Assembly: GCA_965207785.1 (NCBI GenBank)
Contig: CBDBNO010000011.1
Location: 140,664 to 204,663, forward strand
Source of the DNA: Alphaproteobacteria bacterium
GTDB lineage: Bacteria; Pseudomonadota; Alphaproteobacteria; SP197
Length of the DNA stretch: 64,000 nucleotides
Direction: 5' to 3'
Shown: piece after piece, positions 2,877 through 57,016 of the stretch
How the letters are laid out: each line of letters starts with the position of its first letter
How positions within the stretch are numbered: the first letter of the stretch is position 1
Made by a program: the position numbers and the translations under genes
The notes under the pieces: model-generated
Database searches by the model: none
Seen by the model: the letters and a program-made list of their open reading frames with translations, nothing else
Told to the model about the DNA's origin: nothing

Positions 2877-4257
2877 TCAGATTTGAGCGACCGGGCGGCC
2901 GAGGGGAACAGCGGATTCCGGGAACCCGCAGGGCAGAAATTCGCCGCGTCCCGGCTCGGCCCGTATCTCGCCGTCCGCCCAGACCACTTCCCCGCGCGAC
3001 AGCGTGATGGCCGGCCATCCCGTGATGTTCATTCCCTCGTACGGCGTGTAGTCGACGTTGTGGTGCAGCAGGTCGTTGCTGATGGTCACCTCCCGCGAAT
3101 CATCCCAGATGACGATGTCGGCGTCGCAACCGACTGCGATCGTGCCCTTTTGCGGATAGAGCCCATAGAGCTTGGCGGGTGTCGTGGCTGTCAGTTCCAC
3201 GAATCGCTCGAGGCTGATGATGTTCTTGCCGACTCCCTCCGAGAAGAGGAGCGGCATGCGGGTCTCGACGCCCGGCACACCGTTCGGGATCCAGCGAAAC
3301 GAGGCGTCTTCGCCGCGCATCTTCTTTCCGCCGGGACCCTCGAAACGGGTCGGGGCATGATCGGAAGAAAACACGTCGAAGGTTCCGTTGCGAAGCCCAT
3401 CCCAGATCACCTGCTGGTTGGCCTTGTCCCGGGGCGGCGGGCTGCAGACGCACTTGGCGCCTTCGAAGCCGGGCTTGTCGAGGTCATCCTCGGTAAGGAA
3501 CAGGTACTGCGGACAGGTTTCCGCAAACAGCTTGAGACCGCGGGCACGGGCCCTGTGGATTTCGTCCACCACGTCACGAGCGGAAACGTGCACCAGCAGT
3601 ATCGGCACATCCAGGAGCTCGGCCAGGGTGATGGCCCGGTGCGTGCCTTCGCGCTCGACGGGCCGCGGACGGGAATGGGCATGGTACTTCGGCGCGATCT
3701 TGCCCGACTGCTCCAGCCGATCGGTCAGCCAGCTGATGCAGTCGCCATTCTCGGCATGCACCATCACGAAAGCCCGTTCGCGGCGCGCCAGCGCCAGCAC
3801 GTCCAGGATCTCGCGGTCATTCAGCATGAGGCCGTCGTAGGTCATGTAGATCTTGAACGAGGTGTAGCCGTCTCGGATCAATCCCGGCATTTCCTGGCCC
3901 AGGACGTGCTCGTTGGGATCAACGACGATCATGTGAATCGCGTAGTCGGTCATCGCTCGGTTCTCGGCGCGTCCGCGGTACTCGTTCACGGCCTCCCTGA
4001 GACTCTGGCCCCTGAACTGCAGGGCAAAGGGAATCACCGTGGTCGTGCCGCCGGCAAGCGCCGAGCGCGTGCCGGTCAGAAAGTCGTCGGCGCAGACCGA
4101 TCCATCCCTGCTGGGCTGATCGATGTGACAGTGGCTGTCGATGCCACCGGGGGTCACCGTTCGCCCCTCGGCGTCGATCACATGATCGGCGCCTTCCAGT
4201 GAATCCGCCAGCGCCGCGATGCGGCCTTCGCGGATGCCGATGTCACACCTGACGACG
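2877..4257 (-). pseudogene. D-hydantoinase/dihydropyrimidinase, 3' body of a split gene; missing its first ~18 codons, which lie at 14708..14760
   Basis: Annotated ORF gives ...PGGIDSHCH...; cyclic-amidohydrolase fold (HxH, KIYM, DHAP motifs). In-frame upstream reading gives VVRCDIGIREGRIAALADSLEGADHVIDAEGRTV, preceded by TAG and no start codon. The first in-frame start is an internal GTG at ~4182. Confidence 0.75.
4241..4257. repeat. 17-bp direct repeat TGTCACACCTGACGACG, left junction (attL core) of the integrated element
   Basis: Exact copy at 14691..14707. Flanking bases differ on both sides. Lies inside hydantoinase codons AVVRCD on the minus strand. Confidence 0.65.
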
Positions 4258-4372
4258 CACCTTCGGTGCTAAACAACTGATACAACGTAACGTTTTTCTC
4301 TCTCATGTGCAACTGCGGGACGTTTCCGCCACGGATTCTCCCGCCTCTGCAACTCATGACGAGAGGGAATCG

Positions 4373-5497
4373 ATGGCCGCGACCAAACTCACCCAGGCGC
4401 GCTTGCACGCGCTCCGGCCCCGCAAGACCGTCCGCGATGTCCGCGACGCCGAACTCAGGGGATTCGGCGTCCGTCTCTATCCGTCAGGGCGCAAGTGCTT
4501 CTTCATCCACAGCCAACACGAGGGGAAGAGGGTCTGGAAGATCGTCGGCGATGCCGCGTGCCTGAGCGTGGAAGACGCCAGGACCAGGGCCCGCTCCATG
4601 CTGGCAGCCGGCCGGCACGGCACGTCGGCAGCATCGGATCACATCCTGTTCGAGGAGGCGGCCGAGGAAGTCTTCCGCCGCTACGCCAGGAACTGGAAGC
4701 CCGGGACGCTCAGGGTCAACCGGGGTTACTTCGCCAACCAGATTCTTCCCTGGTTCCGGGGACGGCCGATTGCGGCCATCACGGCTGTGGATGTCCGGGA
4801 GTGGTTCGCCTCTCTCCATGCCACGCCGGTGGCGGCCGACCGGTCCGCTCCGGTGCTGTCCGTCATCATGGCCCAGGCGGAGGCCTACGGATACCGTCCC
4901 GAGGGCTCCAACCCCTGCCAGGGCATCAGGCGCTACCGGCGCAAGGGCCGGGAGCGCTTTCTTTCGGACGAGGAAGTCCGCCGGCTCGGGAGGGCGCTGC
5001 GCCGTCACGAAGAGCAATCGGGGATGCATGTGGCGATCATCCGTCTTCTCCTGCTGACCGGGTGCCGCAGTGCTGAGATCGTGACGCTTCGCTGGAGGGA
5101 GTACAGGGACGGTCATCTCCATCTCGCGGACTCCAAGACGGGGCCGCGCATGGTCTGGCTGTCGTCTCCGGCACGGACGATCCTGGACCGGCAACCCCGG
5201 ACGTCGCCGTGGGTCTTTCCTTCGGCCCGGACCGGCAGGTCCGTCGCGGCGGACGCCGTCGGCAAGTTCTGGCGGCAGCTTCGTCTGGAGGCTGGCCTGC
5301 GCGATGTCAGGCTGCATGACCTGAGGCACACATACGCCAGCATTGCCGTCATGACGGGGGAGAACGTGCTCACCGTCGGCCGGCTTCTCGGCCACAACGA
5401 TCCCGGCACGACACTGAAGTACACGCACCTTGCCGACGACGCGGTCGCCACGGCGGCCGAGGCGATGGGGCCCCTTCTCGCGAATGCCGCGTCATGA
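4373..5497 (+). CDS. tyrosine recombinase/integrase, P4-like with N-terminal arm-binding (DUF4102-type) domain
   Basis: MAATKLTQARLHALRPRKTVRDVRDAELRGFGVRLYPSGRKCFFIH matches the DUF4102 N-terminus. Catalytic box LLLLTGCRSAEIVTLRW, HDLRHTYAS, LGHNDPGTTLKYTHL (R, H-x-x-R, Y all present). The annotated ORF starts at 4307, but ATG 4373 better fits the family N-terminus. Confidence 0.85.
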   Translation: MAATKLTQARLHALRPRKTVRDVRDAELRGFGVRLYPSGRKCFFIHSQHEGKRVWKIVGDAACLSVEDARTRARSMLAAGRHGTSAASDHILFEEAAEEVFRRYARNWKPGTLRVNRGYFANQILPWFRGRPIAAITAVDVREWFASLHATPVAADRSAPVLSVIMAQAEAYGYRPEGSNPCQGIRRYRRKGRERFLSDEEVRRLGRALRRHEEQSGMHVAIIRLLLLTGCRSAEIVTLRWREYRDGHLHLADSKTGPRMVWLSSPARTILDRQPRTSPWVFPSARTGRSVAADAVGKFWRQLRLEAGLRDVRLHDLRHTYASIAVMTGENVLTVGRLLGHNDPGTTLKYTHLADDAVATAAEAMGPLLANAAS

Positions 5498-6645
5498 ACC
5501 GCCGGACAAGACTGACCGATGCCGTGATCCGGCGTCTCAAGCCCGGTTCTCGGGAATACACGGTCCGCGATACCGTGGTGCCCTCGCTGGGAGTGCGCGT
5601 GCATCCCTCCGGCGGCCGCGCCTATGTCCACGTCGCCGCGGGGCGGAAGGCATCGCTGGGTTTCGTGGCGCTCCGCACGGTCGAGGAGGCCCGTCGGGAG
5701 AGCCGTGCGCTGCTGGCGGATGGCATGCCAAAGAGGACGGCGGCGGCGCTCTTCCGGGACTTCGTCGCCGGTCCGTGGCGCCAGTCCTGGGTCCACCGGT
5801 GCAAGCCGTCGACGATCAGGTGGCGCGACGGACATCTCGACAAACGCCTTCTGCCGGCATTCGGCCACCTGCGCCTCGACCGCATGTCGCCGGCCGCGGT
5901 GACGAGATGGTTCGACGATTACAGCAGGACCGCTCCGGCCAACGCCAACCACTGCCTCTCGACCCTGCGCCACATCTTCAATCATGCGCTCGCCTGCGGG
6001 CATGTCGCCGCGAACCCCGTCCGCGGCGTCAGGCCCAACCCGCGCCGGAAGATCACCCGCTTCCTCTCCCGGGAGGAACTCGAGCGGCTGCACCGCGTTC
6101 TCGATCGCCATGCCGGCGTCGCAGCCATCAGACCGTCGCACCGCGACCAGATCGACATCATCAGGCTTCTTCTCCTGACAGGCTGCCGCAGGAACGAGAT
6201 CGTCCGCCTTCGCCGGGACGAGGTGGCCGGAACCCGTCTCCGGTTGCGCGACAGCAAGACCGGCCCCAGAACGGTGTTCCTGAACGCCGAAGCCCGGTCC
6301 ATCCTCGAACCAAGGCTGAAGGGCAGCCGGGAGTATCTGTTCACGTCGCCAAAGGATGCCGGACGGCCGCTCAATGAGAGGCTCCCGGTCTGGTACGCCG
6401 TCCGCAAGGAGGCAGGGCTTGAAGACGTCCGCCTCCACGATCTCAGACACACATATGCCAGTCATGCGGTCATGCAGGGAACGCCGCTTCCCGTCGTGGC
6501 GAGGCTCCTTGGTCACAGCAGGACGGCCATGACGCTGCGCTACGCCCACACCGGAGATGCCGAGACCGCGGCCGCCGCCGAGCGGATCGGCCGCGTCATC
6601 GCCGGACTCTGCGGATGCGCCGGCGACTCCGGCGCACCCGCCTGA
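5494..6645 (+). CDS. second tyrosine recombinase/integrase, paralog of the upstream gene, translationally coupled
   Basis: ATG overlaps the int1 TGA (ATGA at 5494-5497). LLLLTGCRRNEIVRLRR, HDLRHTYASHAVM, LGHSRTAMTLRYAHT; same domain layout as int1. Confidence 0.85.
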   Translation: MNRRTRLTDAVIRRLKPGSREYTVRDTVVPSLGVRVHPSGGRAYVHVAAGRKASLGFVALRTVEEARRESRALLADGMPKRTAAALFRDFVAGPWRQSWVHRCKPSTIRWRDGHLDKRLLPAFGHLRLDRMSPAAVTRWFDDYSRTAPANANHCLSTLRHIFNHALACGHVAANPVRGVRPNPRRKITRFLSREELERLHRVLDRHAGVAAIRPSHRDQIDIIRLLLLTGCRRNEIVRLRRDEVAGTRLRLRDSKTGPRTVFLNAEARSILEPRLKGSREYLFTSPKDAGRPLNERLPVWYAVRKEAGLEDVRLHDLRHTYASHAVMQGTPLPVVARLLGHSRTAMTLRYAHTGDAETAAAAERIGRVIAGLCGCAGDSGAPA

Positions 6646-6646
6646 C

Positions 6647-6664
6647 CCCGGGGCGCAGGCCCCG
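6647..6664. terminator. GC-rich hairpin CCGGGGC-gcag-GCCCCGG between convergent int2 and the adhesin gene
   Basis: 7-bp perfect inverted repeat with a 4-nt loop in the 67-bp convergent intergenic gap. No U-tract, as is common in high-GC genomes. Confidence 0.3.
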
Positions 6665-6712
6665 GGGCCGCGCGGGACCGTCCGCATCCATGACGCGGCG
6701 ATCACCGCCGCC

Positions 6713-9700
6713 TCACCAGCGGATGGCGAGATCGACCCCGATGCCGTGCTCCGCCCTGGCCGTGCCGCTCTCCCGGCGCGTCACCTTCACCCCAAACGAC
6801 AGGTCGGGCGCGCTCGCGCCCTCCGGCGTCAAGCGCCAGCCGAGGCTCCAGTCGCGCACGCCCGTGGCGAGCCCGAGGCCCGCATGCGGGCTGCCGGTCC
6901 AGCGCCCGCCGAAGGCCGGCAGGCCGTACGCCGCCTCCACCGCCCAGCGGGAGGTCGCCTCGCTGCCGGTGCGGTCCTCCAGCGTCTGCGGCTGGAACAG
7001 CGCGTCGAGACCGCCGGTGGCCCGGCCGCCGAAGTCATGGCGCAGGCTGAGCGACGCGCCCCGCTTCGTCGCCGGGGCCGGGTCGTATGCCAGCGCCGCC
7101 GCGAAGCCGCGGTCCTTCAGGTCGTCGTTGCCATGTGCGATGAGCGTACGGCCCGACAGGTCGAGCATGAGGCCCATGCCCGGATCGCTCCACCTGACGC
7201 CGCCGCCGGTCTCCACCCCGAAGCCGGTCTCCGCATCGCCGCCGTCATGGCGCGCGCCAAGCTCCAGCTTCGGCACGAGCGTGCCGCCGCCGTCGAGCGC
7301 GACATGGTAGCGGCCCTCAAGGCCGACCCGGAGCCGCGTCGCGTCGGAGTCCGACGCCGCGAGCCGGGCCGTCTTCTCCGAGGAGGTCCGCGTCCACAAG
7401 GCGTCCGAGGTCACCGCCAGCGCCGGGCCGGAGCCTTCCTGCGGGGCTTGGAGCAGGTCGCCCCGCAGCCCCGCCGCCGCCATGCTCCAGCTCGTGTCCG
7501 CGCTGTAGCGGCCGCCCAGTTCGGTCTTCAGCGTCACCTCGCCGGTGCCGTAGCCGGCCGCGCCCCAGAGCTTCAACCGCTCCGATGCCTGGAAGGCCGC
7601 ATAGGGGACCGCCGCCGTCAGCGACGCCTCCACCGTGCCGTCGCCCTCCCGCACCGCGCCCCGGCACAGCTCGGCCGCCTCGGCCGGGCAGTCCTGCGAG
7701 GCGGCGCGGGCCGCGATGTCCGTGTCGCGGTAGTCGCCCTCGCCGTCGCTCTGCGCCAGCGCAAGGCCGACCAGCCACCTGCCCCGGGCATAGTCCGCCC
7801 CCAGCATGCCGGTGGTGACCGTGCCGTCGAGCGAGAAGGTGCCCTCAGCACCATCGAAGCGCGCTTGCGCCGCCCGGCCCCAGAACGCCATGCTGCCGCC
7901 CGAGGAGTCCTTCTCGCCCGTCAGCGAGAAGCTGGAGCCCAGCAGCGCGTCGCGCGCCGTCATGGTGCGCGACTGCGCCGGGGTTTGACCGAAGCCGATC
8001 CCGCCTGTCCCGGAGACCGATCCGGGGCCGCCCGCGCTGCCGCCGAAGCCGCGCGCGATCTCCGCCATGGCCAGCGCCGCCTCGCCGTCGGGAGACCCCG
8101 CGGACCCGAGGTCCGGCCCGCCGCTGCCGGAAGGCGCCGGGTTGAGGTTGACCGCCTGTCCGGCGATCGCGCCCTGCATGCCGGGCGTGCGCGGCGCGGA
8201 CATCCGCCCCGCGATCCCGTCCAGCGCCTGCTCCGCCACCGTGCGACCGAACCGCGCCAGCCACGCCGCCGGCATCGGGTCGTCGTTGACGATGGTGCCC
8301 ACCGCAACCCCGTCGCCGATAACCGCACCCCGCGCCTTCGACAGCACCACCTCGAAGGTCTCCGCCCCCTCGTCATGGCTGTCGTCGTAGATCCGGATCC
8401 ACACCACCTTCTCCGTCTCCCCCGCCTGGAACGTCAGGTCGGAGCTGCCCGGCGCGTAGTCCCGGCCCGGCTCCGCCGACACCGGCGTCGACGGCCGCGT
8501 CGAGACATACACCCGCACCGGCGCGGGCGCCGGCGACGACAGACTCACCGTGAACGGCATCACCGGCAGGCGGCCGCCCTCCTTCGCCGTCGAGTCGCCC
8601 ACCGACAGCGCAGGCACCGTCGAAGGCACGTCGTCGTCCTTCACCTCGACCGACGCCGAGGCCGGATCGCCCACCGTGTAGCCCGCGCCGGCCTCGACCG
8701 TCACCACCGCCGCGCCGTCCGGCTCGTCGGCGTCGTCGTTCACCGTGGCGACGATGAACGACGCCTCCGTCGCGTCATTCGGGATCGTCACCGTGGCCGG
8801 ACCCTCGTCCGCCGCCGCCACGTGGTCGCCGTCCCCGGTCTCGGAGACCGCGAGCGTCACCGTCAGGTCGGCGTCCGGCGCGCGGTCGGCGGTGAGCGTG
8901 AACACCGCATCGCCGCCCTCGCTCACCGAGGCCGCCTTCGCCGCGATCGTCACCACGGGCGGCGGCAGGTCGTCGTCGCGCACCGCGACCGTGGCGTAAG
9001 CCGAAGCGCCGACCGTGTAGCCGCTGCCGTCCGTCACCGTCGCCGTGACCGAGCCGTCCGGCTCGTCCGCGGCGTCGTCGGTCGTCGCCAGGGTCAGCGT
9101 CGCGCTGCCGGTCGTGGGGATGGTGACCGTCTGCGTCCCGGCGGTCACGCCCCAGTCGCCGTCGGCCGCCACGCTCACGCTGACCGCCAGGTCCGCCGCC
9201 GGGGCGGGGGTCGCCGTCAGCGTGAACACCGCATCGCCGCCCTCCGTCACCGAGGCCGCCTTCGCCGCGACGGTCACCTCGGGCAGGGCCGCGTCGTCGT
9301 CACGCACCGCCACGGTGCCCGACGCCGGGTCGCCCGCCGTCCAGCCGCTGCCGTCCGCCACCGTCACGGTGACCGAGCCGTCGGGCTCGTCCGCGGCGTC
9401 GTCGGTCGTCGCCAGGGTCAGCGTCGCGCTGCCGGACGTGGGGATGGTGACGGTCCGGCTGCCGGCGGTCACGCCCCAGTCGCCGTCGGCCGCCACCGTC
9501 ACGCTGACCGCCAGGTCCGCCGCCGGGGCCGGGGTCGCCGTCAGGGTGAACACCGCGTCGCCGCCCTCGGTCACCGCGCTTCCCGCCGAGACCGCGATCT
9601 CCGGCGGGGTCAGGGGCGGCGTGTCGGGCGGCGTGTCGGGCGCCGCCGCCAGCTTCTCCAGCGCCTCGACGATCCGCGGCCACAGCGGGCTACTGTATTT

Positions 9701-12694
9701 CTGCGCATTCGCCTTCGCCTCCGCCAGCGTGGTCGGCGTCAGGCCGGGATACTCCTCCACGCCGAACGCCACCAGCACGCGCCGCCAGCGCTTCACATGC
9801 GCCGCGCCGTGCTGCGTCTGCGCCGCCATCGCGCGCACCTCCGCGACCAGCGCCGGGTCCACCGCCGCAACCGCCGGCGCCGCATCGTCGTCGTCCCGCA
9901 CGGAGACCGTGCCGGAGCCGGACGAGCCCACCGTGTAGCCGCTGCCGGCCGCCACCGTCACGGTGACAGAGCCGTCCGGCTCGTCCGTGGAATCGTCGCC
10001 GGTCGTCAGCGTCAGCGTGGCGCTGCCCGACGCCGGGATGGTCACCGTTTGCGTGCCGGCGGCGACGCCCCAGTCGCCGTCCGACGCCACCGTCACGCTG
10101 ACCGCAAGGTCCGCCGCCGGGGCCGGGCTCGCCGTCAGGGTGAACACCGCATCGCCGCCCTCCGTCACCGCGCTCCCCGCCGACACCGCGATCTCCGGCG
10201 TCTGCTGTTGCGGCTGGTCCTGCCCCTGCTCAAGCGACGACAGGTACACCGAGGCCGCCCAGAACGGGCTCGACGGCCACTTCGCCGCGTTCTCGTGGAT
10301 CTCGGAGGCCGGCATCGCCTCCTCCGGGCTCGCCGTATAGCCGATCGACGCCAGCACCCGGTTCCACTTCCTGATGTGCGCGGGATTGCCCTTCACCGCC
10401 TTGTTCGCCGGGTTGTCCCGCGCCGCGATCAGATGGTCCACCACCGTCTGGTAGTCGGTCCAGTCCGGCGCGCCCTGCCCGGGCTCGTGGTTGAGGATCC
10501 TGATCGCCGAGCGCACCGGCGTGAACGGCTGATAGCCGCCGCTCGCCTCCAGATGCACCGTGACCCACTCGCCGCTGTCCTCCGCCGAATCGTCGATAAT
10601 CGTCACCGGAATGACCGCCGTCGTCGCGCCCGGCGGCACCGTGACCGTCGACGGAACCGTGTAGTCGACGCCCCGCGTCGCATTGCCCGACAGCCTGTAG
10701 TTCAGGGTGAAGTCCGCACTCGGCGCCGGGTTGACCGCCACCACCAGGTTCACCGTCCCGGCCGTGCTCTCCCGCACCTGCCGCGAGTTGGTCACGAAGG
10801 ACACCTTGCGGGCGACCGAGTCGTCGTCGCGCACCGTCGCCTCCGCCGCCGCCCGGTGCGGGAAGGTGTGCCCGCCCACGGACAAGCCGTTCGTGTCGAT
10901 GGTGTAGCCGAAACGGCTCCCCGCCGGCACCACCGTCGTGACCGTCCCGTCCGCCGGCACCGTGCCGTCGGCCCGCGCCAGCGACGCCCGCACCGTGCAG
11001 TCCGGCTCCGCGGTGCCGTCGTTCACCGTCGGCACGGTCAGGACCGTGCTCCCGACCCGCGGCGCGAAGTAGACCTCGTGGCGCTTCGCGTTCCCCGGCG
11101 CCAGGCAGTTGCCGGTCTGCCCCACCTTCAGATGCACCGTGAACGGCCCCTGCGCCGGCGACGGGGCACTGACCTCGAAGTGGACGGGCTTCCCCTCCGC
11201 CACGCCGCCGTCGAGCGCCTGCGGGTGCCACTGCCTGACCGTGACCGTCGGGACGACGTTGCCCGCCGAGCCGTCCGGGCCGTCCTTGATCGTGATCCAG
11301 TACGGATCGTTGGTGACGACCCCGAAGGGCGGCGGGTTGCCTTCGCCCCAGCTGCCGACCGGGCCGGAGAACATCAGCATCCTGCGCACGTCGCTCTCGA
11401 CCAGGGTGGAAGGCGAGATCCGGAGAAGCGCAGTCTTGCTCTTCTCGCCGACGGCAAAGGTCAGGGGGGTGAGCCACTGGTGTGCATGGACGCCCGGCTG
11501 CACGTAGGCGTTCACGGCGATCTGCCGGGTCGCCGCCACGGGGATGAACCCCACCCCCTTCTCCAGCGCCGGGCGGACGAGCCGCGCATTGATGATGATG
11601 TCGCTGCCGGCGGGTGCCTCCGTAATCTCGCATTCGCGGCCGGTGCACGAGCCGCCGACAGGAACAATGCTGTCCACGATGACCAGCGGCGGGCCCGGCG
11701 AGGGCGTGTAGGGCAGCTCCTCCAGCAGCCTGATCTCGCCGTCGCCCGAGCGGCTCGACGAGGCCACCGTCACCCCCGTCGAGGTCACCGTGCCCAGGCT
11801 CACCGTCACCGTCTCGTCGTCGTCGGTGTTGTCCGGAGCGGCCTGCACCTCCAGCGTGGCCGCGGCGACCGACGGGCCGGTGAAGGTCACCGTGCTCCCG
11901 GACAGCGACACCCCCGTGAACGTGCTCGTCAGGAACAGGCTGAAGTCCGCGGGCCGCGAGGCGCCGGCGAAGTTCAGCGGAACCGTCACCGTCTCGCCGC
12001 TCACCAGCGCACGGCTCAGCGCCACGCGGATCTGCGCCACGTTGTTGGCGTCGTCCTCAACCGCAAGGTCGTCCGGGATCGACAGGGTGAGGGTGAAGGG
12101 TGGCTTGACCACGCCGCCGAGGCTGATTTTCAGGGGTACCGTGACGGTGGCCCATGCGCCTGTTGAATTCCATTGTCTACGCAAAGCGTTGTTACCGATG
12201 CTCCAGCCGGCCAGGGCTCCGCTGTCCTCGTTGTTCGAATCCGTGCTGCGTAGGTCCGACGAACCTCTATTGGAGCTCATATCGATCACAAGGAAGTACG
12301 TGGTACCGGCCGCAAGGTCGATGCCCGTGCTCGTGAAGGTCAGCGTCTGGTCCGAGTTGGAGTTGGTGAAGGCGGGGTTGGTCAGGGTCCCGAGAGAACT
12401 GCCCGGAGACCCGCTGGATTCGGAGTGGATGCTGGCGGTGAGCTGCGAAGAAGTAATATTGCTGATCGTGGAAAATTCCACTTCGACGCTGCGCAGGCTG
12501 TAACCTTCGCTGTTGCTGCCGGTCGTGAACGCCATGGCGTAATCGGTGCTCAAACCATATGCGGCTCCGTCTGCCTGACCGACGTTGCTGACAAAGGTCT
12601 GCGTCGTCTGCGCCTCGGCCCCGGTCGGCAGGGCGGCCAGCAGCGGCAGGGCGAGCAGCGCGGCGGCGAGGACCGGGCGCAGGCCGCGCCCCAA
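6713..12694 (-). CDS. giant type Va autotransporter adhesin (1,993 aa) with multiple Calx-beta domains and C-terminal beta-barrel translocator
   Basis: TTG start. Signal peptide MGRGLRPVLAAALLALPLLAALPTGAEA/QT. Repeated Calx-beta motifs (TEGGDAVFTLT...DDAADEPDGSVTV; GNATRGVDYTVP...IIDDSAEDSGEWVTVHL). C-terminal ~300 aa is a classic autotransporter beta-domain (MAFWGRAAQARFDG...LGADYARGRWLVGLALAQSDGEGDY...GIGVDLAIRW) ending in W. Confidence 0.85.
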   Translation of the reverse strand: MGRGLRPVLAAALLALPLLAALPTGAEAQTTQTFVSNVGQADGAAYGLSTDYAMAFTTGSNSEGYSLRSVEVEFSTISNITSSQLTASIHSESSGSPGSSLGTLTNPAFTNSNSDQTLTFTSTGIDLAAGTTYFLVIDMSSNRGSSDLRSTDSNNEDSGALAGWSIGNNALRRQWNSTGAWATVTVPLKISLGGVVKPPFTLTLSIPDDLAVEDDANNVAQIRVALSRALVSGETVTVPLNFAGASRPADFSLFLTSTFTGVSLSGSTVTFTGPSVAAATLEVQAAPDNTDDDETVTVSLGTVTSTGVTVASSSRSGDGEIRLLEELPYTPSPGPPLVIVDSIVPVGGSCTGRECEITEAPAGSDIIINARLVRPALEKGVGFIPVAATRQIAVNAYVQPGVHAHQWLTPLTFAVGEKSKTALLRISPSTLVESDVRRMLMFSGPVGSWGEGNPPPFGVVTNDPYWITIKDGPDGSAGNVVPTVTVRQWHPQALDGGVAEGKPVHFEVSAPSPAQGPFTVHLKVGQTGNCLAPGNAKRHEVYFAPRVGSTVLTVPTVNDGTAEPDCTVRASLARADGTVPADGTVTTVVPAGSRFGYTIDTNGLSVGGHTFPHRAAAEATVRDDDSVARKVSFVTNSRQVRESTAGTVNLVVAVNPAPSADFTLNYRLSGNATRGVDYTVPSTVTVPPGATTAVIPVTIIDDSAEDSGEWVTVHLEASGGYQPFTPVRSAIRILNHEPGQGAPDWTDYQTVVDHLIAARDNPANKAVKGNPAHIRKWNRVLASIGYTASPEEAMPASEIHENAAKWPSSPFWAASVYLSSLEQGQDQPQQQTPEIAVSAGSAVTEGGDAVFTLTASPAPAADLAVSVTVASDGDWGVAAGTQTVTIPASGSATLTLTTGDDSTDEPDGSVTVTVAAGSGYTVGSSGSGTVSVRDDDDAAPAVAAVDPALVAEVRAMAAQTQHGAAHVKRWRRVLVAFGVEEYPGLTPTTLAEAKANAQKYSSPLWPRIVEALEKLAAAPDTPPDTPPLTPPEIAVSAGSAVTEGGDAVFTLTATPAPAADLAVSVTVAADGDWGVTAGSRTVTIPTSGSATLTLATTDDAADEPDGSVTVTVADGSGWTAGDPASGTVAVRDDDAALPEVTVAAKAASVTEGGDAVFTLTATPAPAADLAVSVSVAADGDWGVTAGTQTVTIPTTGSATLTLATTDDAADEPDGSVTATVTDGSGYTVGASAYATVAVRDDDLPPPVVTIAAKAASVSEGGDAVFTLTADRAPDADLTVTLAVSETGDGDHVAAADEGPATVTIPNDATEASFIVATVNDDADEPDGAAVVTVEAGAGYTVGDPASASVEVKDDDVPSTVPALSVGDSTAKEGGRLPVMPFTVSLSSPAPAPVRVYVSTRPSTPVSAEPGRDYAPGSSDLTFQAGETEKVVWIRIYDDSHDEGAETFEVVLSKARGAVIGDGVAVGTIVNDDPMPAAWLARFGRTVAEQALDGIAGRMSAPRTPGMQGAIAGQAVNLNPAPSGSGGPDLGSAGSPDGEAALAMAEIARGFGGSAGGPGSVSGTGGIGFGQTPAQSRTMTARDALLGSSFSLTGEKDSSGGSMAFWGRAAQARFDGAEGTFSLDGTVTTGMLGADYARGRWLVGLALAQSDGEGDYRDTDIAARAASQDCPAEAAELCRGAVREGDGTVEASLTAAVPYAAFQASERLKLWGAAGYGTGEVTLKTELGGRYSADTSWSMAAAGLRGDLLQAPQEGSGPALAVTSDALWTRTSSEKTARLAASDSDATRLRVGLEGRYHVALDGGGTLVPKLELGARHDGGDAETGFGVETGGGVRWSDPGMGLMLDLSGRTLIAHGNDDLKDRGFAAALAYDPAPATKRGASLSLRHDFGGRATGGLDALFQPQTLEDRTGSEATSRWAVEAAYGLPAFGGRWTGSPHAGLGLATGVRDWSLGWRLTPEGASAPDLSFGVKVTRRESGTARAEHGIGVDLAIRW

Positions 12695-12861
12695 GCGGCG
12701 GGCGGCATGGCGGACGCCAGCAGCGGCGCGGGCGGCGGGAAGGTCGCGACTGTCGGGAGTGTCGTGATGCCCCCGGTTAGAGAGACCGGGGCAGGCAGAA
12801 GAAGAAGCGTCAGGCGGGGAGGCTAGCGGGCGAAAGCGGTCCCGTACGCAAGACGCAGGTT

Positions 12862-12979
12862 GGGCGACCCGGCGACCCGGCGACCCGGCGACCCGGCGAC
12901 CCGGCGACCCGGCGACCCGGCGACCCGGCGACCCGGCGACCCGGCGACCCGGCGACCCGGCGACCCGGCGACCCGGCGA
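12862..12979. repeat. perfect tandem repeat of the 8-bp unit GGCGACCC (about 14.7 copies), 168-285 bp upstream of the adhesin start codon
   Basis: Read directly: gggcgaccc ggcgaccc ... ggcgacc. It produces artefactual repeat peptides (PGDPATRR / GSPGRRVA) in two ORF-track entries. Confidence 0.9.
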
Positions 12980-13321
12980 CCATTATACCGCCGGCATCAT
13001 CCCGGTTTGTCAAGCCGTCGGGTGAGCGGATGTCGCTCGCCCCGCCGTCCGGAGCCCCCGCGAGCGCAACCTTCGCCGCGCGCAAAATGTCACCGATCCT
13101 GTCCAACATGGTCATCGCATTGGTCCCCAACTCTGTCGCCCGGCAGGCCCCGCAAGGCACACGCCCGCCGGTCAACGCCTGTTCCATCGGCAATTCGTAA
13201 GCGGATTCCGGCGGCAACGCAAACACGGATCGTCCAAGACCACCCTGATCGGCGAGCTGTCGTCGGGTTCGGCCACGTTGAGCGCACACCGGCGCCAGCA
13301 TCATCTGGCCATCGTGCCAGC

Positions 13322-13555
13322 CCTGCGAACGCCCGTTCGGAGACCCGGTACCTCTCGCGCAACTCGGCCGTCATCATGGCACGGTTGAAGAGCCACGCTG
13401 ACCTGCTCGACATGGTCTCGGGGGCGATGGTGCCGGTCATCAACGGTTGCTGCAATCTCTACCACCCCTGCCAGGCACTCGCGGACGTGCTGACTATCGC
13501 GGCGGACCGGCGCGGGGATCCCGGTGGCGCACGCCGCCTGACCTACGTCGGCGGG
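13322..13555 (+). pseudogene. ornithine/aspartate carbamoyltransferase internal fragment (~78 codons), gene relic
   Basis: ETRYLSRNSAVIMARLKSHADLLDMVSGAMVPVINGCCNLYHPCQALADVLTIAADRRGDPGGARRLTYVGG matches the OTC core (VPVING..HPCQALAD...YVGD). Sequence on both sides is unrelated. No start or C-terminal domain. Confidence 0.55.
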
Positions 13556-13694
13556 TTGCGGTTGAGCGCGCGATCGACCAGCAGCTTCGACATCGACACG
13601 CCCTCGCGCTCCGCCAGGGCGCGGATGCGCTCCCGTTCGAGACGGCTGCACGAGATCGAGTGCATGGTGGCTCTCTCCTCGACGCGCCGGCCCG

Positions 13695-14027
13695 TCATGG
13701 TCCCGGCCTCCCGGCGTCCTGCCGCGCCTGGAATTCCCGGGCCGCAAGGTAGAGGAACGACAGCGCCTCCATGGCGGTGACGTCGCTCCCCGGCAAGGGC
13801 TCCATCAATTCCTCGAGAAGAAGCAGGGTGCGGTTCACCCGATTGAGAAGGTCGCGCTGTTCGGATTCCGAGAGCACCAGGCGCATGTCGTCCTCGTCCT
13901 CCAGGGCGCAGGCGACCATGAAGCGCGAGATCGGCATCTTCGCCGCCTTGGCCCGCCGGCCGATCTCCGCCCAGTCGCTCGGGCGGCAGCTGACGCTGAA
14001 CAGCTGGTTGCGTCTCACGGTCGTGAC
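13695..14027 (-). CDS. small ribbon-helix-helix (CopG/MobC-N-terminal-like) DNA-binding protein, ~111 aa, GTG start
   Basis: VTTVRRNQLFSVSCRPSDWAEIGRRAKAAKMPISRFMVACAL... fits the RHH pattern (beta-strand, then A..G.S.S.y.r). Paralog of the next gene. Start inferred by alignment to the paralog. Confidence 0.45.
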   Translation of the reverse strand, partial: VTTVRRNQLFSVSCRPSDWAEIGRRAKAAKMPISRFMVACALEDEDDMRLVLSESEQRDLLNRVNRTLLLLEELMEPLPGSDVTAMEALSFLYLAAREFQARQDAGRPGP

Positions 14028-14347
14028 TCCTTCCCCTCGATCTCGACCTCGGCCTTCAGCAGGGACTCGATCTCCTCCTCGATCGCCTGCCAGGCCTCCG
14101 CTTCTCCGGCGCGCTCGAAGCGATGGCGCTCGATGCGGGCCAGCACCATGAGGTGATGCGCAAGGCGCCACTGCAGGTCGGCCGGAAGACCGGCCGGTTG
14201 GGGTGGTCTTGTGGTCAGCATCTGCTGCACAGCGTAGCGCGAGATGGGCATGTCGAGGGCCTTCGCGCGCTCGCCGATCCGGGCCCACTCGCTGTCTGAT
14301 GCCATGATGGTGCGCGCCTTGCGCCGCGGATCCTTCGCGTTCATCAT
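14015..14347 (-). CDS. small ribbon-helix-helix DNA-binding protein, ~111 aa, paralog of the downstream gene
   Basis: MMNAKDPRRKARTIMASDSEWARIGERAKALDMPISRYAVQQML...; shares the SDxEWAxIGxRAKAxxMPISRxxV core with the neighbour. Overlaps it by ~12 nt. Confidence 0.45.
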   Translation of the reverse strand: MMNAKDPRRKARTIMASDSEWARIGERAKALDMPISRYAVQQMLTTRPPQPAGLPADLQWRLAHHLMVLARIERHRFERAGEAEAWQAIEEEIESLLKAEVEIEGKESRP

Positions 14348-14690
14348 GGACTCGGTGGCCGGTGGTGGGAACGACGTAAGGGGGCCGTGATGGTGTGTTC
14401 TGGCGGATGTTCGCGTGATGTACTGGACAGAATCACCATGGTCTGCATTGGTATCCATTGTGTGTGATTGTCATGCATTGACGGTGTTCCGGAGCATATA
14501 GGCGATGGAAGAAAGTCTACGTATGACTTCCCCGAATGCAACTGTGGCTCTACGGATCGCTATGCATGTATAGATCTGATGTCGTCCGTGGTACTTGACA
14601 TGGCCGTATTCCGCGCGTAATTAGCGTGACTTGGAGAGAGAGATGCCTTTTGGTGTTTCGATTACATGTATACATGTCGTCAAATTTCTC

Positions 14691-14707
14691 TGTCACACCT
14701 GACGACG
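14691..14707. repeat. 17-bp direct repeat TGTCACACCTGACGACG, right junction (attR core)
   Basis: Exact match to 4241..4257. Preceded by a 230-bp AT-rich tract. Confidence 0.65.
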
Positions 14708-14760
14708 GCGGCTGATGTCGCCACCCTACCTCCCCGAACGATGGTATCGAATCTGCTCAC
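14708..14760 (-). pseudogene. displaced 5' end of the hydantoinase gene (start codon plus ~18 codons)
   Basis: Minus strand: AGGAGA ribosome-binding site, GTG at 14760..14758, then SRFDTIVRGGRVATSAAVVRCD running into the 17-bp repeat. Joined to 4240.., this gives MSRFDTIVRGGRVATSAAVVRCDIGIREGRIAALADSLEGADHVIDAEGRTVTPGGIDSHCH, a textbook hydantoinase N-terminus. An upstream in-frame TGA fixes the start. Confidence 0.65.
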
Positions 14761-14808
14761 GTGTCTCTCCTCTCATTCCTGGCGGCATGACGGACCGGCA
14801 GGCGAGCC

Positions 14809-15924: not shown

Positions 15925-16660
15925 TGCCGGTTTCGAAGACGCTGACCCGAAGCGGATAGACCGGAATCTCCACCTCTCTCCACCCTCGTGGCTCTACCGT
16001 TCCGTCCCCGTAAGGACAGATCGAGATCGCGACAACCTGCTCGATCTCGGCGTAGAACTCAATGTAATCGCCAACCTCGGCATCGCTGGTTCCGAATACG
16101 TAATCGCCGCTGCGAGGTTCGATGGCGACCTTGTAGAACAGGTTGAGATTGTCGTGGACCGCGTGCTGGCCGAAACCCATCATCGCCATTCCCGCGCGCA
16201 GGTTGTCGTAACAGGTTCTCGGGTGAACGCCGGCATACTGCACCCAGTGATGTGCGTTGCAGTGAGCAGCGTGGGAAATGTGGTCACGAGCATGATCGCC
16301 GTTGTCATGCCAGCGCACGGTGTCAGCCAGGCAGGTGCACAGGGGCCTCGAACGCGGGGGCGTTCCCCAAACCCGTGTGAACTTCTTGATACGGCCCCCC
16401 TCGAGGGCGATTTGAGCGGCCGGAAAATAGTGCTCGCTCGGGTCGTCCGGGTTCATCACGCAAACGTCCAGGGCATTCGTGCCTTCAACCACCGTGAGGC
16501 GCCACACTTGGCCTGCACTCACCCTGAAGCCGTAGCCGCTGCCGCGCGGCATCTCGTGCTCGAACACCGTTTGGAAGGACTCCCGGCGCGAGATCACGCC
16601 CTCGTAGAAGCCTGTGTCGAAGGAGTGTTTCTCCCGCACCATGGGTGCTGGTTCGGCCAT
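15890..16660 (-). CDS. conserved hypothetical protein, DUF1989-like (urea-carboxylase-associated family); tentative
   Basis: 256 aa, paralog of the next ORF. Shared motifs (..VxDxxAFNPxDPxE...FTRxWG...RPLxTxxxDTV). Confidence 0.4.
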   Translation of the reverse strand: MAEPAPMVREKHSFDTGFYEGVISRRESFQTVFEHEMPRGSGYGFRVSAGQVWRLTVVEGTNALDVCVMNPDDPSEHYFPAAQIALEGGRIKKFTRVWGTPPRSRPLCTCLADTVRWHDNGDHARDHISHAAHCNAHHWVQYAGVHPRTCYDNLRAGMAMMGFGQHAVHDNLNLFYKVAIEPRSGDYVFGTSDAEVGDYIEFYAEIEQVVAISICPYGDGTVEPRGWREVEIPVYPLRVSVFETGIAPRPWQPLGS

Positions 16661-57010: not shown

Positions 57011-57016
57011 CAGGGA

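What the first reader, a model, noticed from the sequence alone, without database searches (positions are those of the whole stretch)
4241..14707. A 10.4-kb integrative element bounded by an exact 17-bp direct repeat, inserted in the 5' end of the hydantoinase gene
TGTCACACCTGACGACG occurs exactly twice, at 4241-4257 and 14691-14707, with different flanks. The two copies bracket everything that looks foreign: the tandem integrases, a giant adhesin, a repeat tract, gene relics, and an AT-rich end at 14460-14690. A random 17-mer pair in 64 kb is not very unlikely (expectation roughly 0.1-0.2). What makes this one convincing is that the hydantoinase pieces on the two outer sides join in frame across one repeat copy to give a canonical N-terminus. 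The repeat is therefore an att core or target-site duplication, and the element is a site-specific insertion into a protein-coding gene rather than into a tRNA.
Basis: partly seen in the sequence, partly recalled or inferred. Interest (0 to 1): 0.85.

Follow-up and report, generated by a model that had tools for sequence, protein, structure and literature searches.

The report
Tandem-integrase mobile island splitting a hydantoinase gene
A 10.45-kb mobile island carrying two back-to-back integrase genes has inserted into the start of a D-hydantoinase gene and cut it in two. It belongs to a widespread, apparently undescribed family of such islands in uncultured marine bacteria, but it is still an ordinary kind of integrative element.

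Summary

- **Repeat and empty site.** TGTCACACCTGACGACG occurs exactly twice, at 4241-4257 and 14691-14707. The repeat alone is weak evidence: about 40% of simulated 64-kb sequences contain some exact 17-mer repeat. In the two closest genomes (93-95% nt identity) the flanks are contiguous, and the two alignments overlap by exactly those 17 bp. hydA is intact in five related species.
- **Effect on the gene.** The island (10,450 bp) cuts hydA after codon 25/26 and does not restore it.
- **Family.** More than 100 relatives share two overlapping (ATGA), catalytically complete, arm-type tyrosine integrases at one end. At the other end is a mobilisation module: two RHH genes, a third gene, and in two relatives a MobF/TrwC relaxase.
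- **Family att sequence.** ...TGTCACACC-N6-CGCACCnnnGGTGCTAA.... The N6 varies between members.
- **Target range.** Six members sit at six different sites and there are several copies per genome, so the family is not hydA-specific.
- **This copy.** A deletion derivative: gene 3 is truncated and there is no relaxase.
- **Loose end.** The conserved end hairpin resembles the R388 TrwC oriT inverted repeat IR2 next to its nic site.

This is a new variant of a known kind, of moderate interest.

The parts
2877..4257 (-). 3' part of the interrupted D-hydantoinase/dihydropyrimidinase gene (hydA), from about codon 20 to the stop codon. It includes the left copy of the 17-mer.
   Evidence: Translation; Amidohydro_1. 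It is 95% nt identical to the intact gene of L001. An in-frame TAG lies just upstream of the repeat, so there is no fusion or restoration.
4241..4257 (+). attL copy of the 17-bp core TGTCACACCTGACGACG. It reads as half-site TGTCACACC, a 6-bp spacer TGACGA, then CG.
4257..4372 (+). Left (integrase-proximal) arm. It holds the conserved palindrome GCACC-TTC-GGTGC (4257-4269) and two TGCAACT repeats (4308-4314, 4348-4354), which are candidate arm-type integrase sites.
   Evidence: Conserved in six family members (alignments A3/A5). TGCAACT occurs only 3 times in the 64-kb window, all in the element arms. Hairpin pattern.
4373..5497 (+). int1: arm-type (P4-like) tyrosine integrase, 374 aa.
   Evidence: Pfam Arm-DNA-bind_3 + Phage_int_SAM_3 + Phage_integrase. 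Catalytic R-K-H-R-H-Y present. More than 100 homologues at 64-87% identity.
5494..6645 (+). int2: second tyrosine integrase, 383 aa, 38% identical to int1. Its ATG overlaps the int1 stop codon (ATGA).
   Evidence: The pair is conserved in L081, L085, L086, L087, L048 and L088.
6713..12694 (-). Cargo: a 1993-aa secreted repeat protein with a hydrophobic, signal-peptide-like N-terminus (read by eye), a choice-of-anchor R domain, Calx-beta repeats and a weak C-terminal beta-barrel signal. It is a putative surface adhesin.
   Evidence: Internal 324-bp repeats. GC 0.725. Not shared with other family members.
12863..12981 (.). Perfect tandem repeat, (GGCGACCC) x 14.9.
13340..13501 (+). Ornithine/aspartate carbamoyltransferase N-domain fragment (relic).
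   Evidence: Pfam OTCace_N, profile positions 93-147 only, E 7e-12.
13537..13698 (-). Truncated remnant (residues 1-54 of about 142) of the family's conserved third gene. This is the deletion scar.
   Evidence: tblastn: 92.6% identity to the L089 and L091 proteins over residues 1-54 only. No TrwC match anywhere in the window.
13695..14018 (-). RHH-B: 107-aa NikA/MobA-like ribbon-helix-helix protein, a putative relaxosome accessory protein.
   Evidence: Pfam NikA-like, E 9e-6, just below the cutoff. NCBIfam MobA, E 4e-5. 83% identical to the L089 homologue.
14015..14347 (-). RHH-A: 110-aa paralogue of RHH-B, conserved at the right end of family members.
   Evidence: Homologues lie on contigs of the same lengths as those carrying int1 homologues.
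14348..14690 (+). Right arm: conserved non-coding region of lower GC (0.50). It contains the third TGCAACT (14537-14543) and the palindrome ACATGTATACATGT (14665-14678).
   Evidence: Alignments A4/A6 with L089, L090 and L092..
14691..14707 (+). attR copy of the 17-bp core.
14708..14759 (-). 5' piece of hydA: the GTG start codon and the codons upstream of the core, still next to the upstream Ldh_2 gene of the cluster.

Best explanation
Window 4258-14707 (10,450 bp) is an integrative, formerly mobilizable element.

**How it got there.** It entered the 5' end of a D-hydantoinase gene by conservative site-specific recombination between its attP and a matching 17-bp sequence in hydA. The two 17-mers are the att core, present at both junctions. 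The insertion separates the first 25 codons and the promoter from the rest of the gene. It supplies no replacement start, so hydA is very probably inactive (inferred).

**Recombination machinery (inferred).** The likely recombinase is the pair of translationally coupled, catalytically complete arm-type tyrosine integrases Int1 and Int2 next to attL. They probably act together on an asymmetric core, with TGCAACT repeats in both arms as arm-type sites.

**Family attP.** It reads ...TGTCACACC - N6 - CGCACCnnnGGTGCTAA.... I propose that:
- TGTCACACC is the half-site that the target must resemble;
- N6 is the 6-bp overlap where the strands are exchanged;
- N6 differs between family members because it is swapped with host sequence during integration and excision cycles.

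On this model each copy would be directed to a different, nearly unique site.

**The other end.** It carries a mobilisation module of two RHH proteins, a third gene and, in fuller relatives, a MobF/TrwC relaxase. In this copy a deletion has removed most of gene 3 and the relaxase, so it could move between cells only with help in trans. The cargo is a large Calx-beta surface protein.

**Shown versus inferred.**
- Shown: the insertion, its exact borders, the gene disruption, the conserved architecture and ends, and the multiple targets.
- Inferred: that both integrases are required, where the strands are exchanged, the rewriting of the spacer, and present-day mobility.
For: - **Empty site.** It lies exactly at the repeat in L001 and L002, and hydA is intact in L001-L005.
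- **In-frame healed gene.** The joined sequence is a canonical D-hydantoinase.
- **No restoration.** An in-frame TAG lies upstream of attL, and the first usable start is GTG at 4181 (codon 44).
- **Element ends inside the core.** Nucleotide homology to another family member (L081) runs 4244-6590, so it begins inside the 17-mer and ends with int2.
- **Conserved junctions.** Six attL junctions share ACACC-N6-CG-CACCnnnGGTGCTAA. Four attR junctions share TGTCACACC followed by unrelated host DNA.
- **Integrase pair.** The int1/int2 pair with ATGA overlap is present in 6 of 7 loci (7 of 7 have the pair). All six catalytic residues are present in both proteins in all of them.
- **Arm repeats.** TGCAACT occurs only at 4308, 4348 and 14537 in the 64-kb window, always on the same strand, and is conserved in relatives' arms.
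- **Right-end module.** RHH-A, RHH-B and gene 3 are conserved in L089 and L091 (L092 differs in its RHH-B gene call); L090's contig ends within RHH-B. A TrwC/MobF relaxase follows in L089 and L092. The window keeps only residues 1-54 of gene 3.
- **Composition.** Element GC is 0.70, against 0.62-0.65 in the flanks and about 0.50 in the arms.
Against: - No excised circle or attP junction was found. The one collection that could be scanned for it (JGI metagenomes) lacks this family altogether.
- Both ends are known for this element only. The rule that the spacer at attL equals the spacer at attR rests on one case.
- The core lacks the inverted-repeat symmetry usual for tyrosine-recombinase core sites. 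Its flanks, GGTGCG and GGTGTG, are direct repeats.
- No excisionase was identified.
- The RHH assignments fall just below the curated cutoffs.
- The conserved hairpin next to the crossover resembles a relaxase nic region. A different enzyme could therefore act at this junction.
Confidence: 0.78

Rival explanations
1. Relaxase-made or relaxase-used junction. On this view the att core is a MobF/TrwC-type nic region. The element would be inserted, and/or transferred directly from the chromosome, by relaxase nicking and strand transfer at nic-like sequences at both borders. The integrases would play a secondary role.
For: - The reverse complement of the family's left end is TTAGCACC-GAA-GGTGCG-N6-GGTGT. 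R388 oriT is GCGCACCGAAAGGTGCGTATTGTCT|ATAG, with identical 5-bp IR2 arms and the following G. L086/L087 read GGTGCGTATGCC and L081 reads GATTGTC.
- The nick in R388 falls 9 nt after the hairpin, which here is inside the shared GGTGT core.
- Family members encode TrwC-like relaxases and RHH proteins weakly similar to relaxosome accessory proteins (NikA/MobA).
- TrwC integrates DNA into 17-bp nic-like targets in the laboratory (PMC3264647).
- This model would explain why the host matches the element for 10 nt 5' of the putative nick.
Against: - The window's element has no relaxase. None of L081, L085-L087 shows one in the DNA held downstream of int2 (about 3-9 kb).
- The two integrases are the invariant partners of this end.
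- The positions that are essentially invariant for TrwC recognition in R388 (nt 17-21) fall mostly in the hypervariable N6 here. That is hard to reconcile with a relaxase recognition site and easy to explain as a recombinase overlap region.
- The RHH genes lie on the 3' (leading) side of the putative nick, the opposite of my recollection of R388/F (from memory, not checked here).
- The relaxases are only about 37% identical to alphaproteobacterial MobF relaxases. No such hairpin was found near mobF in two such plasmids.
- The resemblance was noticed post hoc.
Confidence: 0.1
2. Regulated gene integrity. On this view the element is a domesticated switch, like skin in sigK or the comK prophage. 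It would excise under defined conditions to restore hydA and with it expression of the catabolic cluster.
For: - Both halves of hydA are undamaged: 98% aa identity to L001 and no frameshift.
- Both cores are identical, so precise excision would restore the gene.
- Both integrases are intact.
- The gene sits inside a co-directional catabolic cluster.
Against: - Close integrase relatives (83-87% identity) sit at other sites next to unrelated genes, and several copies occur per genome. This is the signature of a multi-target family rather than a clade tied to one gene.
- None of the 80 best hydA loci from other species is interrupted.
- The element carries cargo and decay products typical of a selfish island.
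Confidence: 0.05
3. Immobile fossil. The insertion is real, but the element can no longer excise or transfer, and the gene disruption is a fixed, neutral or slightly deleterious accident.
For: - Internal deletion of gene 3 and of the relaxase region.
- A foreign OTCase fragment and a simple repeat tract lie inside the element.
- No attP junction was found.
Against: Both integrase ORFs are full length with all catalytic residues. Both arms and both cores are intact and identical. hydA shows no secondary decay, which suggests the event is recent. This rival is compatible with the origin given in the best explanation and differs only on present activity.
Confidence: 0.3

Closest known systems
Classical integrative mobilizable/conjugative elements (IMEs/ICEs) with an arm-type (P4/SXT-like, DUF4102) tyrosine integrase
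   Same: The integrase lies next to one att site and a direct-repeat core is shared by attL and attR. There is an empty attB in relatives, variable cargo, a mobilisation module (RHH accessory proteins, MobF relaxase in fuller relatives), and lower-GC arms with repeated motifs.
   Different: There are two co-translated, both catalytically complete integrases instead of Int plus Xis. The target is inside a coding sequence and is not restored. The family uses many different sites, and its otherwise conserved attP contains a hypervariable 6-bp spacer.
GInts (ginABCD islands; Bardaji et al. 2017, PMC5385486)
   Same: A recombinase operon at one end, cargo in the middle and a short AT-rich far end. 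Imperfect or short flanking repeats. Insertion at gene ends, including 5' ends. Excision is reported to generate att-site variants that shift target specificity, which parallels the variable spacer proposed here.
   Different: GInts need three recombinase-like genes plus the small GinD. Here there are exactly two integrases and no conserved fourth gene. The proteins here carry arm-binding domains, and a relaxase module is present in this family.
[quoted passage not shown]
   Same: Two catalytic tyrosine recombinases in one operon at the attL end, with translational coupling. A 6-bp spacer between the terminal motifs in the circular form, and 6 bp of host sequence placed next to the int-proximal motif.
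   Different: SEs have intA-tfp-intB plus srap and 13-19-bp imperfect terminal inverted repeats. Here the integrases are directly adjacent, no tfp or srap counterpart is conserved, and the termini are not inverted repeats. An empty site clearly exists in relatives.
XerC/XerD acting on dif
   Same: Two paralogous tyrosine recombinases presumed to bind the two different halves of an asymmetric core around a 6-bp central region.
   Different: Xer proteins lack arm-binding domains, are chromosomal housekeeping enzymes and are not encoded as an overlapping pair on a mobile element. NCBIfam scores here are far below the Xer cutoffs.
dusA-specific integrase islands (Farrugia et al. 2015, PMC4482086)
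   Same: Tyrosine-integrase islands that target the 5' end of a protein-coding gene.
   Different: Those islands form one integrase clade tied to one gene and rebuild the 5' end of dusA. Here the gene is not rebuilt, and the clade uses many targets.
TrwC (R388) relaxase-mediated site-specific integration at oriT-like 17-bp targets (PMC3264647, PMC4176350)
   Same: A GCACC-loop-GGTGC-G hairpin lies next to the junction, and the putative nick position falls inside the shared core. The family encodes MobF relaxases and RHH proteins weakly similar to NikA/MobA relaxosome accessory proteins.
   Different: This copy has no relaxase. The positions that matter most for TrwC recognition are the variable ones here. 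The gene order around the putative nick differs. This is a laboratory activity, not an established natural integration route.

Membership tests
Integrative genetic element (site-specific, tyrosine-integrase type) | Bounded by a direct repeat (att core) at both junctions | tested here: met
   Exact 17-mer at 4241-4257 and 14691-14707.
Integrative genetic element (site-specific, tyrosine-integrase type) | Uninterrupted attB in related genomes, with the break exactly at the repeat | tested here: met
   In L001 and L002 the flanks abut and overlap by the 17 bp. hydA is intact in L001-L005.
Integrative genetic element (site-specific, tyrosine-integrase type) | Integrase gene next to one att site (cohesive int-attP module) | tested here: met
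   The int1 start lies 116 bp from the core. The core-int1-int2 block is conserved at 81% nt identity in L081.
Integrative genetic element (site-specific, tyrosine-integrase type) | Excised circular form (attP) and restored attB | tested here: inconclusive
   The attP junction 35-mer is absent from JGI metagenome contigs, but that collection holds no member of the family at all. Reads from the source sample were not available.
Integrative mobilizable element (IME) | Own relaxase and/or oriT | tested here: inconclusive
   There is no relaxase in the window, and gene 3 is truncated. Relatives L089 and L092 carry TrwC/MobF. The RHH accessory genes are present but score just below the cutoffs. An oriT was not demonstrated; a hairpin resembling R388 IR2 is the only lead.
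Arm-type (P4-like, DUF4102) tyrosine integrases | N-terminal arm-binding domain, SAM-like core-binding domain and a catalytic domain with R-K-H-R-H-Y | tested here: met
   Pfam domains in both proteins (for int2 the arm domain is weak, E 1e-3). Catalytic residues are present in all 15 sequences examined.
GInt | ginABCD operon: three recombinase-like genes plus a small HLH protein | tested here: not met
   Exactly two integrases, and nothing conserved after int2 in six loci.
[quoted passage not shown] | intA-tfp-intB plus srap core genes | tested here: not met
   int1 and int2 overlap directly (ATGA), and no tfp or srap counterpart is conserved.
[quoted passage not shown] | 13-19-bp imperfect terminal inverted repeats | tested here: not met
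   The termini CGCACCTTCGGTGC... and ...TCTGTCACACC are not inverted copies of each other.
Recombinase-in-trio (RIT) element / Tn554 family | Three recombinases (RitABC), or TnpA-TnpB-TnpC | tested here: not met
   Only two recombinases and no third conserved gene.
Gene-restoring islands (dusA type) | attP carries a replacement for the displaced gene end, so the target stays functional | tested here: not met
   An in-frame TAG lies three codons upstream of the core at attL, and no start codon occurs before GTG 4181.
Regulated-gene-integrity element | An integrase clade consistently found in the same gene | tested here: not met
   Relatives at 83-87% identity lie at other sites. None of the 80 hydA loci is interrupted.
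Regulated-gene-integrity element | Condition-dependent excision that reactivates the gene | not testable with these tools
   This needs culture or time-resolved read data.
Relaxase (TrwC-type) nic-site integration | IR2-like hairpin plus a conserved single-strand recognition sequence 5' of the nick at the junction | tested here: inconclusive
   The hairpin arms and the following G are identical to R388. However, the 6 nt that follow are hypervariable in the family.
Relaxase (TrwC-type) nic-site integration | Cognate relaxase encoded by the element | tested here: not met
   No TrwC similarity anywhere in the window.

The most novel reading that the evidence does not exclude
The attachment core of this family may double as a MobF/TrwC-type nic site: an IR2-like hairpin GCACC-nnn-GGTGC-G, 6 nt, then GG|TGT. 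An integrated copy would then be flanked by two nic-like sequences. A relaxase could initiate at one border and terminate at the other, lifting the island out of the chromosome as a transfer strand. It could also insert the island into nic-like targets such as the hydA 17-mer. That would be a natural counterpart of the laboratory 'relaxase as integrase' activity of TrwC, coupled to a pair of tyrosine integrases.
Probability: 0.1. Interest if true: 0.8.

Novelty: new variant of a known kind. Interest (0 to 1): 0.5.

Why it matters
**The single event.** An island knocking out a hydantoinase gene in an uncultured alphaproteobacterium is ordinary mobile-element biology, and is now documented with exact borders.

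**The family behind it** is the more useful result.
- It is abundant: more than 100 integrase variants at 64-87% identity, with several copies per genome.
- Its hosts are uncultured MAGs. Study and bin names suggest marine sponge microbiomes, but this was not verified.
- It carries defence genes and surface proteins as cargo.
- It always uses two co-translated, catalytically complete arm-type integrases.
- Its conserved attP contains a 6-bp hypervariable spacer, and it lands at a different site in each case.

I found no description of this architecture among the known multi-recombinase elements (SE, GInt, RIT, Tn554).

If the spacer does set the target, the pair would be a naturally retargetable integration system, testable with simple plasmid assays. 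The family also offers a marker (int1-int2 plus the TGTCACACC-N6-CGCACC core) for delimiting islands in metagenome-assembled genomes, where tRNA-based island finders fail.

Tried and rejected
- **attP search.** I searched for the excised form with the 35-mer spanning right end, core and left end in JGI metagenome contigs. There was no match. This is uninformative, because the family is absent from that collection and from IMG/VR.
- **Second end of other members.** I looked for a second copy of each element's own left-junction sequence (k of at least 12, at most 1 mismatch) within 10 kb in L081 and L085-L087. None was found. Those elements are longer than the DNA held.
- **Paired look-ups.** Fetching int and RHH genes from the same large contig (P0028/P0153) failed, and so did the window's own proteins (P0001, P0012): no exact gene record. 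Look-ups are exhausted.
- **Window ORF 13301-13747(-).** It is not the family's gene 3. The true remnant is in another frame at 13537-13698.
- **Plasmid forms.** The reconstructed 475-nt attP has no blastn match in PLSDB. The best plasmid integrase relatives are only 43% identical, although the Shewanella MR-1 megaplasmid also has an overlapping pair.
- **R388-like hairpin elsewhere.** It was not found near mobF in two alphaproteobacterial plasmids, nor inside the right-end segments of L089, L091 and L092.
- **C-terminal domain of the cargo protein.** No PDB sequence match.
- **Known RNA families.** No Rfam family anywhere in the window.
- **Transposase-type target-site duplication.** Rejected, because the family-conserved ends overlap the repeat from both sides.
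- **Deletion in relatives instead of insertion here.** Rejected. It would need the same precise 10,450-bp loss in at least five species, each leaving one core copy inside an intact reading frame.

Full report
**1. The observation**

TGTCACACCTGACGACG is present exactly twice in the window, at 4241-4257 and 14691-14707 on the + strand. There are no further matches at up to two mismatches, and the flanks of the two copies differ.

The repeat on its own is weaker evidence than it looks. In first-order Markov simulations of a 64-kb sequence of this composition, about 42% contain at least one exact repeated 17-mer (mean 0.55). The window itself has another, unrelated pair at 9157/54254.

That support holds. 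hydA lies on the minus strand. Joining 2877-4257 to 14708-14759 across one copy of the repeat gives an uninterrupted frame. It starts V(M)SRFDTIVRGGRVATSAAVVRCDIGIREGRIAALADSLEGADHVIDAEGRTVTPGGIDSHCHIDQ. The 477-aa product aligns from its residue 5 to residue 2 of the solved D-hydantoinase 1nfg (E 3.6e-128).

**2. The decisive test: empty sites**

I scanned one genome per species for relatives of the healed protein. This returned 80 loci, every one matching from residues 1-4 onward, so none is interrupted.

The five closest (L001-L005, 96-98% aa identity) are uncultured Alphaproteobacteria MAGs. In L001 and L002 the DNA on both sides of the window's element is 90-95% identical to one continuous stretch:
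- window 2877-4257 aligns to 11434-10054;
- window 14691-16100 aligns to L001 10070-8662 (14691-16554 to 10070-8212 in L002).

The two alignments meet and overlap by exactly the 17 bp. Each relative carries one copy of the 17-mer inside hydA, differing at one synonymous position.

So 10,450 bp are present here and absent there, with borders at the repeat. The alternative would be the same precise deletion in at least five species, each leaving an intact frame. That is not credible.

**3. Consequence for the host gene**

At attL, the frame of the 3' part of hydA runs into a TAG three codons upstream of the core. The first possible start is GTG at 4181, which is codon 44. The element does not rebuild the 5' end, unlike the dusA-type islands.

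The 5' piece (start codon plus the codons upstream of the core) stays attached to the upstream Ldh_2 gene. hydA sits in a co-directional cluster: Hydantoinase_B, ABC transporter, DUF1989 x2, Ldh_2, hydA, a 98-aa ORF, TauD, amidohydrolase. I infer that the gene is inactivated and that polarity on downstream genes is possible. Neither was tested.

Both gene halves are otherwise undamaged (98% aa identity to L001), so the event looks recent.

**4. Anatomy of the element**

| Window coordinates | Strand | Feature |
|---|---|---|
| 4241-4257 | + | attL core |
| 4257-4372 | + | left arm, about 115 bp, GC 0.52 |
| 4373-5497 | + | int1, 374 aa |
| 5494-6645 | + | int2, 383 aa; its ATG overlaps the int1 stop (ATGA) |
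| 6713-12694 | - | 1993-aa cargo protein |
| 12863-12981 | . | perfect (GGCGACCC) x 15 tract |
| 13340-13501 | + | 54-residue carbamoyltransferase fragment |
| 13537-13698 | - | first 54 codons of a conserved family gene (gene 3) |
| 13695-14018 | - | RHH-B, 107 aa, overlaps RHH-A |
| 14015-14347 | - | RHH-A, 110 aa |
| 14348-14690 | + | right arm, 343 bp, GC 0.50 |
| 14691-14707 | + | attR core |

- **Integrases.** Both have the Phage_integrase catalytic domain, a SAM-like core-binding domain and an Arm-DNA-bind_3 N-terminus (weak for int2), which is the P4-like architecture. They are 38% identical to each other.
- **Cargo protein.** It has a hydrophobic, signal-peptide-like N-terminus (read by eye), a choice-of-anchor R domain, Calx-beta repeats, internal 324-bp DNA repeats and a weak beta-barrel signal at the C-terminus. 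'Adhesin' is a reasonable guess but is not shown.
- **RHH genes.** They are ribbon-helix-helix genes with weak NikA/MobA/TraJ similarity, just under the curated cutoffs.
- **Composition.** The element is 70% GC against 62-65% for the flanks.

**5. It is one member of a large family**

int1 has more than 100 distinct homologues at 64-87% identity. Almost all come from uncultured MAGs and metagenome assemblies. This indicates several copies per genome.

Study and bin names (ROBB21, RHO1) suggest sponge microbiomes. That is my reading of the names, not a checked fact.

Every locus I could fetch has the same pair:
- L081/L082/L083, L085, L086 and L087 (83-87% int1 identity);
- L048 (62%);
- the Shewanella oneidensis MR-1 megaplasmid (43%).

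The ATGA overlap is kept in 6 of 7. All six catalytic residues (R, K, H, R, H, Y) are present in every Int1 and every Int2 examined.

What follows int2 differs in every locus: Mrr, SIR2, a pentapeptide protein, fasciclin, IS elements, and here the Calx-beta protein. Nucleotide homology between the window and L081 runs from 4244 to 6590 only. It starts inside the 17-mer and stops at the end of int2.

**6. The other end is conserved too**

RHH-A has 59 homologues. Many lie on contigs of the same lengths as those carrying int1 homologues.

The fetched loci L089, L090, L091 and L092 show the following:
- RHH-A, followed by RHH-B and a 142-146-aa gene 3 in L089 and L091. L090's contig ends inside RHH-B. 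L092 has an 80-aa gene call in the RHH-B position and a 135-aa gene 3.
- In L089 and L092, a 1431-1730-aa TrwC/MobF relaxase follows.
- The cargo is often defence-related (GmrSD, methyltransferases, Z1/HATPase).

The window keeps gene 3 only to residue 54 (92.6% identity) and has no relaxase similarity anywhere. This copy is therefore a deletion derivative. The carbamoyltransferase fragment and the repeat tract lie at the scar.

**7. The family att site**

Aligning six left junctions and four right junctions gives a consistent picture, written in window + orientation.

Left junctions read host | ACACC - N6 - CG - CACCnnnGGTGCTAA...:

| Member | N6 |
|---|---|
| window | TGACGA |
| L081 | GACAAT |
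| L085 | GGATAA |
| L086 and L087 | GGCATA |
| L048 | ATGGGG |

Right junctions read ...TGTCACACC | N6' - host:

| Member | N6' and next two bases |
|---|---|
| window | TGACGA-CG |
| L089 | ACGATG-TC |
| L090 | GATGCC-CG |
| L092 | CGACTA-CA |

The circular form should therefore carry ...TC TGTCACACC N6 CGCACCnnnGGTGCTAA.... The only sequence common to both ends across the family is ACACC.

In the window, hydA happens to match the conserved half-site (TGTCACACC), the spacer (TGACGA) and the next CG. That is what makes the repeat 17 bp long.

Both arms carry TGCAACT, at 4308, 4348 and 14537. These are the only three occurrences in 64 kb, all on one strand, and they are conserved in relatives. 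They are candidate arm-type sites. The motif was found from the two left copies, so the independent evidence is the third copy falling in the right arm (roughly p = 0.02), plus the conservation.

**8. Most likely mechanism**

I read this as conservative site-specific recombination by the integrase pair.
- Two different, co-translated, catalytically complete recombinases, together with a core that has no inverted symmetry, suggest that each binds one half of the core. This parallels XerC/XerD at dif. It is an inference.
- The spacer is 6 bp, the canonical size of a tyrosine-recombinase overlap region. It is far more variable than the conserved sequence on both sides.
- The simplest cause of that variability is exchange of the overlap with host DNA during integration and excision. 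This resembles the coupling sequences of Tn916/CTnDOT, the 6-bp 'fingerprint/footprint' of SEs (PMC10214605), and the att variants that shift specificity in GInts (PMC5385486).
- A copy whose spacer has become TGACGA would then find hydA as a near-unique target.

Both ends are known for this element only, so the rule remains a hypothesis.

No excisionase was recognised. The RHH proteins could serve in mobilisation, in directionality, or both.

**9. A loose end that could matter**

Read on the other strand, the left end is TTAGCACC-GAA-GGTGCG-N6-GGTGT. The nic region of plasmid R388 is GCGCACCGAAAGGTGCGTATTGTCT|ATAGCCC (PMC4176350). The two share the same 5-bp hairpin arms and the following G. 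L086/L087 continue GTATGCC and L081 continues GATTGTC.

The R388 nick lies 9 nt after the hairpin, which here falls inside the shared GGTGT core. The family encodes MobF relaxases, and TrwC can integrate DNA into 17-bp nic-like targets in the laboratory (PMC3264647). The att core might therefore double as a nic site.

Against this:
- The nucleotides most critical for TrwC (nt 17-21) fall mostly in the variable N6 here.
- This copy has no relaxase.
- The RHH genes lie on the leading side of the putative nick, which as I recall is the opposite of R388 and F (from memory, not checked here).
- The relaxases are distant (about 37% identical to alphaproteobacterial MobF).
- I found no such hairpin near mobF in two related plasmids.

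I keep it as the most novel reading, at about 10%.

**10. Comparison with known systems**

It works like a classical IME/ICE integration module and passes the tests for an integrative element: repeat, empty site, and a cohesive int-att module. It fails the defining features of the named multi-recombinase elements:
- GInt: three recombinase-like genes plus GinD;
- SE: intA-tfp-intB-srap and terminal inverted repeats;
- RIT: three recombinases;
- Tn554: TnpABC.

It is not a dusA-type gene-restoring island. It does not look like a regulated-gene-integrity switch, because close integrase relatives occupy other sites and no other hydA is interrupted.

Five of my seven literature searches were aimed at tandem or paired integrases and sponge-symbiont elements. 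None turned up a description of a directly overlapping pair of arm-type integrases as the conserved module of an island family. That is absence of evidence in a partial library, not proof of novelty.

**11. Verdict**

As a single event it is ordinary. The family-level features make it a new variant of a known kind and a reasonable target for a short experimental follow-up: the obligate integrase pair, the conserved core with a hypervariable 6-bp spacer, many targets, several copies per genome, and an end resembling an R388 oriT. Interest is about 0.5.

Noticed in passing
window 4257-4269 (and L081, L085-L087, L048 left ends): The conserved palindrome GCACC-nnn-GGTGC followed by G is identical in its arms to IR2 of the R388 oriT nic region (GCGCACCGAAAGGTGCGTATTGTCT|AT). 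L086/L087 continue GTATGCC. It may be an oriT element placed at the att junction.
   Followed up: partly
window 12863-12981: Perfect 8-bp tandem repeat (GGCGACCC) x 14.9, with 100% matches, inside the element's relic zone. Its origin and function are unknown.
   Followed up: no
window 13340-13501: A fragment of an ornithine/aspartate carbamoyltransferase N-domain abuts the truncated gene 3. It may be a piece of a former insertion site or of lost cargo.
   Followed up: partly
window 57549-57635: A 29-residue stretch 52% identical to the TGCR region of int1 (tblastn E 2e-5). It lies in an ORF (56605-57798) with no Pfam hit, so it may be a relic of another integrase or a chance match.
   Followed up: partly
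window 46040-46132: ARAGORN calls a 93-nt tRNA-Ala(GGC), but the Rfam gathering-threshold scan finds no tRNA or any other family in the window. The call is probably a false positive.
   Followed up: partly
L081 15445-16760: A second, 5'-truncated int1 (last 63 residues) plus a full int2 lies 4.5 kb downstream of the first pair. Two family members appear to sit in tandem in the same MAG.
   Followed up: partly
L086 9055-9200: A relict left end (GCACCTTCGGTGC hairpin, a conserved arm-like sequence and an ATGGCGACC... start) lies 830 bp upstream of the L086 element. It appears to be a decayed neighbour of the same family.
   Followed up: no
L048 2028-4450: Another family member (int1 62%, int2 55% identical) lies 6 kb from a hydA homologue (65% identity) in a different Alphaproteobacteria MAG, but not inside it. 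This is probably coincidence.
   Followed up: partly
L081, L085, L086, L089, L091, L092 (cargo regions): Cargo of related elements is rich in defence-type genes: Mrr, SIR2_2, KAP NTPase, GmrSD/HNH, EcoRI-type and N6/N4 methylases, Z1/HATPase and GIY-YIG.
   Followed up: no
L088 (Shewanella oneidensis MR-1 megaplasmid, NC_004349.1 32496-34993): A distantly related (43% / 39% identical) pair of overlapping integrase genes exists on a cultured organism's plasmid. The tandem-pair module therefore reaches well beyond the MAG lineages and could be studied in a tractable host.
   Followed up: partly
window 9157 and 54254: A second exact 17-mer pair occurs in the window with no other shared context. 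It illustrates that exact 17-mer repeats arise by chance at this composition.
   Followed up: yes
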